Virus record (IMG/VR): IMGVR_UViG_2778261559_000026
Length of the DNA stretch: 31,691 nt
Source of the DNA: a virus
Taxonomy: Duplodnaviria > Heunggongvirae > Uroviricota > Caudoviricetes
Strand: one strand, 5' to 3'
Below are positions 24,901 to 27,900 of the stretch, piece after piece (positions within the stretch are counted from its first letter, which is position 1; each line of letters opens with the position of its first letter). Made by a program: the position numbers.

Positions 24901-27900
24901 TCAGTTTCTCTTCCAGATAATTCCAACGGTCAACCAGTTGGCGAGTAAATTCCGGTACGTTTTGAGCAATCAAGACAATCGAATCTAAGCGACCTTGCTC
25001 ACCCTCAAACACATAATCTTTAACAGTAACAGCAAACCCTAAGTTATTGATTTTCTCGAAATTCTGCGTTGCAGGTTTTCGGATAACTTGGCGTTCAACC
25101 AGTCGGTTCATAGAAGTTTCAAGGTTTGAAAAACGAACTCCAATAAGGTCGGCAATTTCACGAAGAGTCATTTTTGCAACTTCGTTATCAACAACCAGAG
25201 ACACGGAAGCAGTTTTAACAGCAGTATTCATAGTAGTAACAGTATTCATAGTAGTAATTCCCCTTAAACGGTTTTGCGATAATGATATTGATCCTCCTAG
25301 TTCCGGCAGCATCACCGGAACAATTTTATTTATAAGAAGTTTTTATCTCATTTAGATTCAGCAATCGCGCGATCAATTTCTTCTTGAATGCGACGCTGGC
25401 GTTCATGGAAGTCAACCATTGAGAAATTCAGGTTTGGGGTCCACGGTTTGCGGTTCGGGTTTTTGCGTCCATCAATTTTCTTAGTAGTGTTCATAATTAA
25501 CATCCTCTTTACAGTTCTAGGTCAAATATGATCAAGGTTGTCAAGTGCGATGATCATAAAAAAGTAAGAAATTTTTGTCAATACACCTTGACAAGACACC
25601 AAAGGGTTGACCTAACTTACAGAATATCTAAGCCTTCATCGTAACCGTAGAAGCCATTCTGAGAAGAGAAACAGATTGGTGCGTAGTCGTCGTCATCTTC
25701 GTCTTGTTCATCTTCTTCTGGGGCTTCCTGAGCGGTTTCTTTACCGTAGTTAAACATTGCTTCATCCAGTTCATAGACAGTAACGAAGCTACCCAGGTCA
25801 ATGTCACCGGAACGGACTTCAAACGGAAGATCATCACGAACAATAATTGCTGGTAGATTCTGGTACTTTAAGCGTTCTTCATCGGTGAAGACGTTAACAA
25901 CAATGGTCGGCTTCTTATTACGGTGGAAGGCATACCATGCACTAGAGAAATGAGATTCATCAGAGTTGAAAAGAATGTTGTGACCACGTTCACGGAACAT
26001 CTTCATTAACTTGTCATTGTGGAAGCTATCAGCATCAAAACCTAACAGGATGAAAGGAGTAGTGGTAGTCATTTTATGGTTCATAGTGGAAATCCTCTAA
26101 AAGAAAGTGAATCAATCTAATATTATTTATAAAGAGAAAATTCTTGTTATTATGAAAGGTGATTGTATTCAGTCGGGCAAAGCCCTCCTTCATGATTTGA
26201 TTAAATCATCATCAAAACGAAGAAGTATCTTTAGAATATAAGAATCTTTCTTTTGGAGAAATAATAATCAGGAAGCAATTTAGCAACCGAAGGTTGCAAT
26301 CCCGAAGGGATACCAATACCTTTCTAGAAAGTGATTGTTACTCACTTCGTTCGTTTACTAGAATCAGTTAGTAACTAGTATTAAATCCCTTTCTAAGAAA
26401 ATCCTTTCAAAAGTGATTCTCGATGCCACGCAGTGGCGTCGCAGACGTTTGAGAGTGAGCGAAGCGAGCGAGCAAACTAGTTAATTCCTTCTAAGACCAT
26501 CTAGTATCATCTAGTTTAAATTAGTTGTTACTAGAAGTAATTGGTTAGCGCTTCGCGCAGTCGGGCAAAGCCCTCCTAATATCTTTTTGGTTATTTTTGG
26601 TTTTACACATGAGCGTAGCGAATGTGTTATATAATATCTATGCACGCCGAATCCCCCGCCCTTACCCCTACCTAATTTAATGTTTTATAAAGAGTTTTTC
26701 TCACCAATCCTTTTCGGGGGAAAATTTCAGGGGCAAAAATTAGATTTTCAGGGGCAATTATTGGCATTTCAGGGGCAAAAATGAGGGGCAAAATCACTGT
26801 TTCCCAGAAATTTCAGGGGCAAAAATAGTAGGTTTCAGGGGCAAAAATAGGATAGTAGAATCTTGGGATTTTGTTCGGGGGCAATTCCCATCAAATATTT
26901 TGATAGAAAATTATTGTATATTATTTAACCACAAAATCACCAAAAAGTGGTTTAAGCTAATGATTTAAAAGGAATAATCAAAAGGTCTCCGTGCCATAAT
27001 AGGTTATAAAGGTTGATAATCCTAATCTACCATTTTCAAACAAAAATTTTGATAGTCACCTCTCGCTTAGATCATGTGTGTTGACATGTGTCAAGAACTA
27101 TTTTATGCTTTTTATCACTGGTAAGGGTTGAAATTTTCAAAACAATCCCCATATAGATGATAAGCATGATTTTTTCGTGTATAAATACATGCATGAAAAA
27201 TGATTGTTCACTTCTGAAAATCTCCTGACTCACTGTTAACTCATACAGCACTGGTTAGATATGCAGTGCTTTTTTCGGTTGAATATTGTACGGATTGATT
27301 AATTATTAATCTTCTCTTTAGCAATTCGTGCTCCCACTGATCGGATATACAGTGGTTTTGCAGGGTTTTTCGAAAAACATTTTATAAATAGAATTGTTCA
27401 GAGCGAAAAGCTCTTTTTTAAGATTTTTTAAACCTAACAATGAGGGATTAAAAATGGCTAAACCTGTACGATTCACACGAGAAGTATTACTCCCGATTGC
27501 TAAACGTTATTTTGAAGCGATGCAGGGTGACAAGCTGGCGGTTTTGAAGGAAGAAGGGATTGACCCCTCTGATTTTAGAAAACTGCTAAAACGATATGAC
27601 ATTAAAGTGAAGATTGAAGCTACCGTTTGGTAATCAACTTTGACTGAGAATTATATGATGGCTTTAAAAATAAAAAAGCCCCCTTGCGGCAACAAGGAGG
27701 CTTTTGCGATGAACAATTAAAACTAACTTTCCACAGGAGTATTTATAATGTTATTTTCCGCTAACTTTTTCACTAACGAAGTAACCAACGCTAAAGCAGT
27801 TATCAAATTTGGCACCGAAGCAAACAAGAAGATTCAGCCGAAAGTTGTTGCTCATGTTTCCTTTGCGCAGCAGAAATCCGCTTTCGCTGGCTTTAAAGCA

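What the first reader, a model, noticed from the sequence alone, without database searches (positions are those of the whole stretch)
25617..26084. 155-aa protein with an extremely acidic C-terminal tail
The C-terminus EEDEQDEDDDDYAPICF is reminiscent of the acidic protein-interaction tails of single-strand DNA-binding proteins and of DNA-mimic proteins. The gene lies between the strong promoter at 25553 and the iteron region, so it could be a replication accessory or anti-restriction/host-interaction protein.
Basis: inference. Interest (0 to 1): 0.35.

Follow-up and report, generated by a model that had tools for sequence, protein, structure and literature searches.

The report
Orphan prophage protein with acidic docking tail
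A real, conserved 155-residue prophage gene in gut bacteria encodes a small folded domain followed by a floppy, very acidic tail that probably docks onto another protein; it is not a DNA-binding SSB or a classical DNA mimic, and its function is still unknown.

Summary
The ORF is real: window 25617..26084 on the minus strand, 155 aa, with a good RBS. It has 112 homologue clusters, all in Escherichia/Shigella, Salmonella and Proteus, and all annotated "hypothetical". It always sits at the same position in an uncharacterised ~30-35 kb siphovirus-like prophage. In this window that prophage is inserted in hicB by a serine recombinase.

AlphaFold gives a small alpha/beta domain (aa 7-115) and a disordered tail (aa 116-155). 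The quoted acidic string is aa 123-139, not the C-terminus; 16 more residues follow. The conserved tail element is an acidic run followed by DDDY-x-P-[IV]-x-F ... Y-x-x-[GA]-[LF]-x-ML-COOH. This element survives across genera better than the folded domain does.

No Pfam, PHROG, NCBIfam, PADLOC, PDB-sequence or Foldseek match is significant. There is no OB fold and no Walker A motif.

The N-domain exists as deep alleles that reassort independently of every other prophage segment. That includes the iterons, which instead co-vary with the 318-aa neighbour gene.

Best reading (about 0.4): an adaptor or decoy protein whose conserved tail docks on a conserved, probably host, partner. The SSB, classical DNA-mimic and allele-matched replication-partner readings are not supported. 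Interest is modest.

The parts
25617..26084 (-). CDS of the 155-aa protein (stop codon 25617-25619)
   Evidence: ORF list. 112 homologue clusters. Conserved synteny. pN below pS.
26093..26098 (-). Shine-Dalgarno AGAGGA, 8 nt upstream of the ATG
   Evidence: Read directly from the sequence.
25740..26066 (-). Folded alpha/beta N-terminal domain (aa 7-115), an exchangeable allelic cassette
   Evidence: AF2 pLDDT ~80-90, order b-a-b-a-b-a-b-(b)-a. There are two deep E. coli alleles (~50% aa identity) on flanks that are 90-100% identical. The allele is uncorrelated with every other prophage segment.
25620..25739 (-). Disordered acidic tail (aa 116-155)
   Evidence: pLDDT 34-43 in both models. 15 D/E and 0 K/R. 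Tail charge is -10 to -19 in 58 homologues.
25686..25718 (-). Acidic run EEDEQDEDDDD (aa 123-133)
   Evidence: Composition is conserved, but sequence and length vary across genera.
25620..25694 (-). Conserved terminal motif DDDY-x-P-[IV]-x-F-SS...G[FY]YGY-x-[ED]-[GA]-[LF]-[DE]-ML-COOH (aa 131-155)
   Evidence: D133, Y134, P136, F139 and L155 are invariant. D131, D132, S140, S141, G144, G147, Y148 and M154 are at least 90% conserved in 58 sequences from three genera. Column entropy is lowest here. pN is 0.14-0.33 at saturated pS.
25553..25581 (-). Context only: strong sigma-70-like promoter downstream of the gene, overlapped by the palindrome TTGTCAA-N6-TTGACAA; it points into the 51-aa and Rha/Ant-like genes
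   Evidence: 11/12 match. Conserved in distant relatives. Rha/Ant assignment.
26712..26886 (+). Context only: iteron array (about 8 copies of TTTCRGGGGCAAAA, 21-22 nt spacing)
   Evidence: Iteron type co-varies with the 318-aa gene, not with this gene.

Best explanation
The gene encodes a two-module accessory protein that is a core gene of an uncharacterised enterobacterial temperate siphovirus-like prophage lineage. Module 1 (aa 7-115) is a small, non-enzymatic alpha/beta domain. It exists as deeply diverged, freely exchangeable alleles. Module 2 (aa 116-155) is an intrinsically disordered tail made of an acidic spacer and a bipartite acidic/aromatic linear motif that ends in a free ...GLDML carboxy-terminus.

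The most likely mechanism is this. The tail docks into a basic or hydrophobic groove of a partner that is conserved across Escherichia, Salmonella and Proteus, most plausibly a host protein. The protein would then act as an adaptor or competitive decoy, that is, a host-takeover or counter-defence type of factor.

Shown: the architecture, the disorder, the conservation pattern and the independence from other phage alleles. Inferred: that the tail is a docking motif, that the partner is host-encoded, and whether the effect is recruitment or inhibition.
For: - The architecture is reproducible in two AF2 runs with different alignments.
- The tail has no basic residues, is net -10 to -19, and keeps 5 invariant and 8 near-invariant positions across three genera.
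- At saturated synonymous divergence the terminal 22 residues change less (pN 0.14-0.33) than the folded domain (0.41-0.43).
- In pairs whose N-domains are below 45% identical, the terminal motif is still 58% identical while the spacer is 17%.
- The gene is a core, syntenic gene in every relative examined.
- The N-domain allele correlates with no other 150-200 nt window of the prophage (r about 0 within the prophage). The same method gives r=0.93-0.97 for iterons versus the 318-aa gene. An allele-specific phage partner for the N-domain is therefore unlikely.
- There are no catalytic-type motifs and no Walker A in 58 of 58 sequences. No family or fold assignment was obtained.
Against: - No partner has been identified, and no multimer prediction or experiment was possible.
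- Within E. coli the tail-coding DNA is nearly identical (pS about 0) because it lies in a conserved mosaic block together with the downstream promoter. Part of the tail's apparent conservation is therefore shared recent ancestry. Only the cross-genus comparisons, 22 codons, speak for protein-level constraint.
- A conserved phage partner (TerL, Rha-like or the 318-aa protein) would fit the data as well as a host partner.
- The tail could instead be a degron.
- A search with the tail alone found the motif on no other protein family. There is therefore no independent evidence that it is a portable docking module.
Confidence: 0.4

Rival explanations
1. Replication accessory. The conserved tail recruits a host replisome component (for example DnaB, primase, or an SSB-partner-type protein) to the neighbouring iteron origin, in the manner of lambda P.
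For: - The gene lies about 630 nt from an iteron array that is followed by an AT-rich stretch.
- The prophage has no recognisable helicase, primase, polymerase or initiator gene, so some of its roughly 10 unknown early proteins must organise replication.
- The tail is acidic and aromatic, like the tails of replication hub proteins (sequence).
Against: - The N-domain allele is uncorrelated with iteron type (r about 0.1) and with the 318-aa putative iteron binder (r about 0.08). Those two co-vary with each other at r=0.93-0.97. There is thus no O-P-like allele matching.
- The iteron region has not been shown to be an origin; it could be a packaging or regulatory site.
- There is no similarity to any known loader.
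Confidence: 0.15
2. Lysis-lysogeny switch component. The protein would be an unstable regulator or antirepressor-type protein working with the adjacent promoter-51aa-Rha/Ant module, with the tail serving as a protease degron or as the contact to that module.
For: - The gene sits immediately upstream of, and co-directional with, a strong operator-flanked promoter, a 51-aa gene and a Rha/Ant-like gene (phrog_63, E=1e-15; PF09669 in relatives).
- No terminator is predicted between them.
- The tail and this promoter form one conserved mosaic block.
- No CI-like repressor is recognisable in the prophage.
- Exposed aromatic-rich tails are typical Lon substrates (general knowledge).
Against: - There is no DNA-binding motif.
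- The N-domain allele does not co-vary with any candidate repressor or operator segment.
- The 51-aa protein shows no detectable similarity to P22 Arc, so the immI analogy rests on gene order only.
- No LexA box lies next to the gene.
Confidence: 0.15
3. Anti-restriction or anti-defence protein whose acidic tail mimics nucleic acid and blocks a host nuclease or DNA-binding defence protein.
For: - The tail has a net charge of -15 with runs of 5-11 D/E.
- Some phage inhibitors combine a folded domain with an acidic tail, for example SPO1 Gp44 (abstract of PMC8208478).
- Deep, freely reassorting N-domain alleles would fit an arms-race gene.
Against: - There is no similarity to Ocr, ArdA or any PADLOC/PHROG anti-defence family.
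- The charge is in a disordered segment, not on a rigid DNA-shaped surface.
- N-domain diversity (pi 0.22) is no higher than that of TerL, the Rha-like gene or the 318-aa gene in the same prophages. dN/dS is well below 1, so there is no signature of positive selection.
- The best-conserved part of the tail is aromatic/hydrophobic, not the acidic run.
Confidence: 0.1
4. Recombination directionality factor (excision factor) for the prophage's large serine recombinase.
For: - The prophage uses a large serine recombinase (Resolvase + Recombinase + Zn_ribbon_recom), and no excisionase is recognisable.
- RDFs of serine integrases are unrelated small proteins often encoded far from int (general knowledge).
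Against: - Both N-domain alleles occur in hicB-integrated prophages.
- The allele does not co-vary with the recombinase region (window 2537-3949, r no higher than 0.11).
- The 85-aa and 79-aa paralogous small proteins are equally good RDF candidates.
Confidence: 0.05
5. A single-strand DNA-binding protein (SSB-type).
For: Only the acidic tail followed by hydrophobic residues.
Against: - The fold is alpha/beta, not an OB fold.
- There is no SSB Pfam, NCBIfam or PDB hit.
- The domain is net negative in all 58 homologues.
- The C-terminus is not a DDDIPF-type tip (motif definition from PMC5872125).
Confidence: 0.01

Closest known systems
C-terminal tail of bacterial SSB (disordered linker plus SSB-Ct tip DDDIPF)
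   Same: A disordered C-terminal segment. An acidic run is immediately followed by hydrophobic, Pro and aromatic residues (DDDY-A-P-I-C-F versus D-D-D-I-P-F). The presumed role is as a docking peptide.
   Different: There is no OB fold, and the domain is acidic. The DDDY..P..F element is internal, so it has no free Phe carboxylate. The true C-terminus is ...GLDML. No homology is detectable.
Acidic C-terminal tails of phage replication proteins (T7 gp2.5 and gp4, T4 gp32)
   Same: A phage protein with an acidic tail that contains essential hydrophobic or aromatic residues and contacts partner proteins (from general knowledge; not tested here).
   Different: Those proteins have DNA-binding or helicase domains. 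This one has an orphan alpha/beta domain with no nucleic-acid-binding features and ends in Leu, not an aromatic residue.
DNA-mimic anti-restriction proteins (Ocr, ArdA) and SPO1 Gp44
   Same: A small, strongly acidic phage protein (pI 4.3). Gp44 also carries an acidic C-terminal tail (PMC8208478 abstract).
   Different: Ocr and ArdA display their charge on a rigid folded surface. Here the charge is in a disordered tail and the domain is only about -4. There is no sequence or fold similarity.
Lambda P-type adaptor between origin complex and host helicase
   Same: A small early protein encoded next to an iteron region in a phage without its own helicase. It has a two-part design: a variable part plus a part that would contact a conserved host protein.
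   Different: There is no homology. In this data set the variable part does not co-vary with the iterons or with the putative iteron binder.
Minimal P-loop-like / RecA-like / flavodoxin-like alpha/beta sandwiches (top Foldseek hits: APS kinase 8a8h, PNKP kinase domain, DEAD-box C-terminal domains, de novo P-loop folds)
   Same: A three-layer alpha/beta topology with a parallel sheet.
   Different: All E-values are at least 0.017, and TM normalised to the query is at most 0.41. There is no Walker A in 58 of 58 sequences. No conserved catalytic residues are present.

Membership tests
SSB (OB-fold single-strand DNA-binding proteins, PF00436) | OB-fold ssDNA-binding domain | tested here: not met
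   AF2 gives b-a-b-a-b-a-b-(b)-a, an alpha/beta sandwich. There is no Pfam, NCBIfam or PDB hit.
SSB (OB-fold single-strand DNA-binding proteins, PF00436) | Acidic tip with a hydrophobic residue at the extreme C-terminus (DDDIPF-COOH type) | tested here: not met
   The acidic run is aa 123-133, and the chain continues for 22 residues to ...GLD(M/I)L. Motif definition from PMC5872125.
DNA-mimic anti-restriction proteins (Ocr / ArdA) | Sequence or fold homology to Ocr or ArdA | tested here: not met
   No hit in Pfam, PHROGs, PADLOC, BFVD or PDB.
DNA-mimic anti-restriction proteins (Ocr / ArdA) | Negative charge arrayed on a rigid folded surface | tested here: inconclusive
   The N-domain net charge is -1 to -11 (median -4), and the bulk of the charge (-10 to -19) is in the disordered tail. 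Surface geometry was not analysed.
P-loop NTPases (closest fold neighbours) | Walker A motif [AG]x4GK[ST] between strand 1 and helix 1 | tested here: not met
   0 of 58 family members have the motif. Foldseek E-values are at least 0.017.
Iteron-binding replication initiators | Protein allele co-varies with iteron sequence type | tested here: not met
   r about 0.1 for this gene versus r=0.93-0.97 for the 318-aa gene, across 30 prophages.
CheY-like receiver / HAD-like alpha/beta domains | Conserved acidic pocket at the strand 1 and strand 3 C-termini (DD...D, or DxDxT) | tested here: not met
   The strand-1 loop (D17, D19 in the window protein) is not conserved (GFDAD / GLNHD / GFALR / GFKHR...). 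The only CheY hit has E=0.75.
Host-protein-docking short linear motif (functional class, not a homology family) | Disordered, conserved beyond its flanks, and binds a defined partner | tested here: inconclusive
   Disorder and conservation are met. Partner binding is not testable with these tools.

The most novel reading that the evidence does not exclude
The tail is a mimic of a host hub-protein docking peptide (an SSB-Ct-like or other acidic/aromatic C-terminal tail). With it, a whole lineage of enterobacterial prophages would plug into or jam a conserved host interaction network. The exchangeable N-domain cassettes would provide alternative payloads or escape variants. That would be a new class of phage 'tail-mimic' adaptor or decoy.
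Probability: 0.12. Interest if true: 0.6.

Novelty: new variant of a known kind. Interest (0 to 1): 0.3.

Why it matters
The protein is a core gene of a widespread but unstudied prophage lineage of E. coli, Shigella, Salmonella and Proteus. That lineage carries no recognisable replication or repressor genes. A conserved disordered docking tail is an experimentally tractable handle: peptide pull-down or tail deletion could reveal which conserved host or phage machine this lineage depends on or disables. On present evidence, however, it remains an orphan accessory protein without a demonstrated or unusual mechanism.

Tried and rejected
Family and structure searches
- Pfam, PHROGs, NCBIfam and PADLOC gave nothing significant. 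The best hit was DUF4835 at E=0.003, below its cutoff.
- PDB sequence and profile searches gave nothing.
- tblastn against 50,697 phage and 72,556 plasmid records found no match, including with a Salmonella homologue as query.
- A full HMMER profile search of 1.84 billion representative proteins returned 11 hits, all from the same small family apart from one spurious repeat protein.
- Foldseek against PDB (two models) and BFVD gave no hit with E below 0.01.

Tail-specific and neighbourhood checks
- A search with the tail alone returned only fragments of the same gene.
- Rfam found nothing in the neighbourhood.
- No LexA box lies next to the gene.
- The 51-aa neighbour shows no similarity to P22 Arc.
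- Literature searches for the prophage, or for similar acidic-tail phage proteins, found nothing specific.

Readings I dropped or corrected
- My initial reading of the N-domain as a uniquely hypervariable island was corrected. Across 30 prophages its diversity (pi 0.22) is ordinary for this mosaic family.
- Beta-clamp motif: rejected, because the Gln of 'QNGFY' is not conserved.
- FtsZ-tail, ssrA-like and VP16-like resemblances came from memory only. They are not testable here and are not claimed.
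Full report
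**1. The observation**

The window has an ORF at exactly 25617..26084, on the minus strand. It encodes 155 aa: MNHKMTTTTPF...DEGLDIL. An AGAGGA Shine-Dalgarno lies 8 nt upstream of the ATG.

Residues 116-155 contain 15 D/E and no K/R (net -15). The run EEDEQDEDDDD is aa 123-133. The rest of the protein is only net -4, and the whole protein has pI 4.3.

Sixteen further residues follow (SSQNGFYGYDEGLDIL).

The "strong promoter at 25553" is real (TTGACA-17-TATGAT, 25581..25553, 11/12). It is on the same strand but downstream of the stop codon, so it drives the next genes, not this one. The iteron array is real (26712-26886).

**2. Where the window comes from**

The window is a prophage with its flanks.
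- The right end (31341-31691) is the N-terminal part of hicB.
- The left end is ydcR, a GntR-type gene.
- A large serine recombinase lies at 2537-3949.
- The minus strand carries tail genes, an S78-protease/capsid fusion, a portal and a GpA-type large terminase.

Related prophages occur in 58 of 5,426 complete E. coli genomes, always on the chromosome. No isolated phage in INPHARED is close: the best TerL identity is 43%.

An IMG/VR contig (IMGVR_UViG_2526164662_000045) carries a copy of the 155-aa gene that is 100% identical at the protein level.

The non-structural part (23.2-31.1 kb) holds about ten genes of unknown function. No helicase, primase, polymerase, known initiator or CI-type repressor is recognisable.

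**3. The family**

Word-indexed searches found 77 clusters, then 112 when a profile was used. All are annotated "hypothetical protein". They come from Escherichia/Shigella (52-98% identity), Salmonella enterica (35-42%) and Proteus mirabilis (34%).

An exhaustive HMMER profile search of 1.84 billion representative proteins found nothing outside this small family.

In every locus examined the gene occupies the same place. The order is:
- a TerS-like gene;
- a 313-357-aa gene and a 59-79-aa gene, reading the other way;
- about 1.3 kb without genes;
- this gene;
- a small gene;
- a Rha-family gene;
- two small genes on the other strand;
- TerL.

It is therefore a core gene of the lineage, not a moron.

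**4. Structure**

Two AlphaFold2 runs, with 37 and with 58 sequences, agree. Residues 7-115 fold as a small alpha/beta sandwich (strand-helix x3, strand, (strand), helix; pLDDT about 80-90). Residues 116-155 are disordered (pLDDT 34-43).

Foldseek against PDB (both models) and BFVD returns only generic P-loop-like, RecA-like or designed sandwiches. E-values are at least 0.017 and TM normalised to the query is at most 0.41.

No member has a Walker A motif. The acidic residues after strand 1 are not conserved.

Pfam, PHROGs, NCBIfam, PADLOC and PDB sequence and profile searches are all negative. There is no OB fold, so the protein is not an SSB.

**5. The tail is the conserved element**

In an alignment of 58 sequences from three genera:
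- the invariant tail positions are D133, Y134, P136, F139 and L155;
- the positions conserved in at least 90% of sequences are D131, D132, S140, S141, G144, G147, Y148 and M154.

The consensus is an acidic run followed by DDDY-x-P-[IV]-x-F-SS-..-G-[FY]-Y-G-Y-x-[ED]-[GA]-[LF]-[DE]-M-L-COOH.

The acidic spacer keeps its composition but not its sequence or length. Among pairs whose N-domains are below 45% identical, the spacer is 17% identical and the terminal motif 58%.

Between genera, synonymous sites are saturated everywhere (pS 0.65-1.0). Non-synonymous change is 0.14-0.33 in aa 134-155, against 0.41-0.43 (0.34 for the L007/L009 pair) in the folded domain.

One caveat applies. Within E. coli the tail-coding DNA is almost identical (pS about 0). 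It belongs to a conserved mosaic block that also contains the downstream promoter. Only the cross-genus comparison, 22 codons, argues for constraint at the protein level.

A search with the tail alone found it on no other protein family.

**6. The N-domain is an exchangeable cassette**

Between the window and two other E. coli prophages, identity drops to 46-76% exactly from the start codon to about codon 116. Both flanks are 90-100% identical.

E. coli has two deep alleles, about 50% identical at the protein level, plus recombinants.

I first read this as hypervariability, and a wider test corrected that. In a 30-prophage alignment, N-domain diversity (pi 0.22) is similar to that of TerL, the Rha-like gene and the 318-aa gene. 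dN/dS is well below 1. These are old alleles shuffled by recombination, not a site of positive selection.

**7. Co-variation test of the replication idea**

I correlated pairwise distances of the N-domain with those of every 150-200 nt window of the prophage.
- Right half: r is about 0 everywhere from 16.7 to 30.2 kb.
- Left half: r is about 0 within the prophage, at most about 0.2.
- Higher values, up to 0.36 on the left and up to 0.77 from few pairs at the att-proximal right end, appear only in or next to the host flanks.

As a positive control of the method, the iteron region (26335-26934) correlates at r=0.93-0.97 with the 318-aa gene (27685-28734). The 750 nt between them reach only r about 0.4.

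E. coli prophages carry at least three different iteron types. Salmonella and Proteus relatives carry yet others, with 11- or 21-nt periods.

The 318-aa protein is therefore the likely iteron binder. The 155-aa protein's variable domain is matched neither to the iterons (r about 0.1) nor to that protein (r about 0.08).

Both N-domain alleles occur in hicB-integrated prophages. The allele does not follow the recombinase region, which gives no support to a role as an excision factor.

**8. Interpretation**

What is shown:
- a real, core, two-module protein;
- an orphan non-enzymatic alpha/beta domain in interchangeable alleles;
- a disordered, basic-residue-free tail with a bipartite acidic/aromatic motif and a conserved free C-terminus, kept across genera.

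What I infer (confidence about 0.4): the tail is a docking peptide for a partner conserved across Enterobacterales, most simply a host protein, and the protein acts as an adaptor or decoy.

The rivals are:
- a replication accessory acting through the tail (0.15);
- a lysis-lysogeny component, with the tail as degron or as contact to the adjacent promoter-51aa-Rha/Ant module (0.15);
- an acidic-tail anti-defence inhibitor (0.10);
- an excision factor (0.05);
- an SSB (about 0.01).

The resemblance to the SSB tail (DDDIPF, PMC5872125) and to the T7 and T4 acidic tails is a lead only. The SSB defining features that could be tested, the OB fold and the terminal tip, are not met.

**9. Verdict**

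The finding is a genuine gene with a genuinely unusual and conserved tail. The specific SSB and DNA-mimic analogies are not supported, and the replication link has no positive evidence.

No known family can be assigned. Nothing points to a mechanism of a new kind. Interest is modest (0.3). The neighbouring noncoding region and the iteron/318-aa pairing are arguably more informative for understanding this prophage lineage.

Noticed in passing
window 26335-26934 and 27685-28734: Across 30 related prophages, iteron type co-varies almost perfectly with the allele of the 318-aa gene (r=0.93-0.97). The 750 nt between them reach only r about 0.4. E. coli relatives carry at least three iteron types, and Salmonella and Proteus relatives carry others (11-nt GTAGGAGGGGT or ATCCCTAG periods). 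The 318-aa protein (N-domain, coiled coil, acidic C-terminus; no family hit) is the likely iteron-binding protein.
   Followed up: partly
window 26085-27393: This 1.3-kb gene-free stretch lies between divergent genes and is conserved in length across the family. On the minus strand it holds two adjacent cUUCGg tetraloop hairpins (~26283-26312). It also holds an exact 20-nt direct repeat, CAGTCGGGCAAAGCCCTCCT, at 26170 and 26558. The RNA fold of 26085-26660 has a z-score of -3.8. Patches at 26453-26607 and 26067-26196 are 80-81% identical to a relative whose coding DNA is about 72% identical. There is no Rfam hit. It could be a structured leader or ncRNA, or an ori/cos element.
   Followed up: partly
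window 24416-25594 (minus strand): A strong promoter (25581..25553) is overlapped by the palindrome TTGTCAA-N6-TTGACAA. It is followed by a 51-aa gene and a 299-aa Rha/Ant-like gene (phrog_63). The gene order is reminiscent of P22 arc-ant, but the 51-aa protein has no detectable similarity to Arc. A second TTGACA-TG-TGTCAA palindrome overlaps the rightward promoter at 27081-27109.
   Followed up: partly
window 27233-27248 and 27337-27352: There are two LexA-box-like sites: CTGT-N8-ACAG with 0 mismatches, and one with 1 mismatch. They lie upstream of the rightward 79-aa and 318-aa genes. The number of such sites in the whole window (13) is not above chance.
   Followed up: no
window ~3830: Relative to the 35-kb prophage at the same hicB site in E. 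coli 266917_2, the window's prophage lacks about 4.8 kb. The missing part covers the lysis genes (D-Ala-D-Ala carboxypeptidase-type endolysin), the distal half of the tail-tip gene and the 3' end of the serine recombinase gene. This copy is probably defective.
   Followed up: partly
window 29415-29969 (minus) versus 21256-23163 (minus): The only small-terminase-like gene (phrog_57, E=1.7e-10) is separated from the GpA-type large terminase by about 6 kb of early genes and the noncoding region. It ends in its own acidic tail (...EEELPLMDEPEQEPEEDDEFDVS).
   Followed up: no
window 23855-24112 (+) and 27394-27633 (+): The 85-aa and 79-aa proteins are paralogues (42% identity over 52 aa, E=2e-11). 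Each precedes or follows one of the divergent units. No family hit was found.
   Followed up: partly
whole window: This prophage lineage of E. coli, Shigella, Salmonella and Proteus uses at least two integration sites: hicB, and a site next to a 2-hydroxyacid dehydrogenase/PHP gene. It has no recognisable replication or CI-type repressor genes and no close relative among isolated phages.
   Followed up: partly
window 6050-6823 (minus): A 257-aa ORF with NUMOD3 motifs (homing-endonuclease-type DNA-binding repeats) sits inside the tail gene cluster.
   Followed up: no
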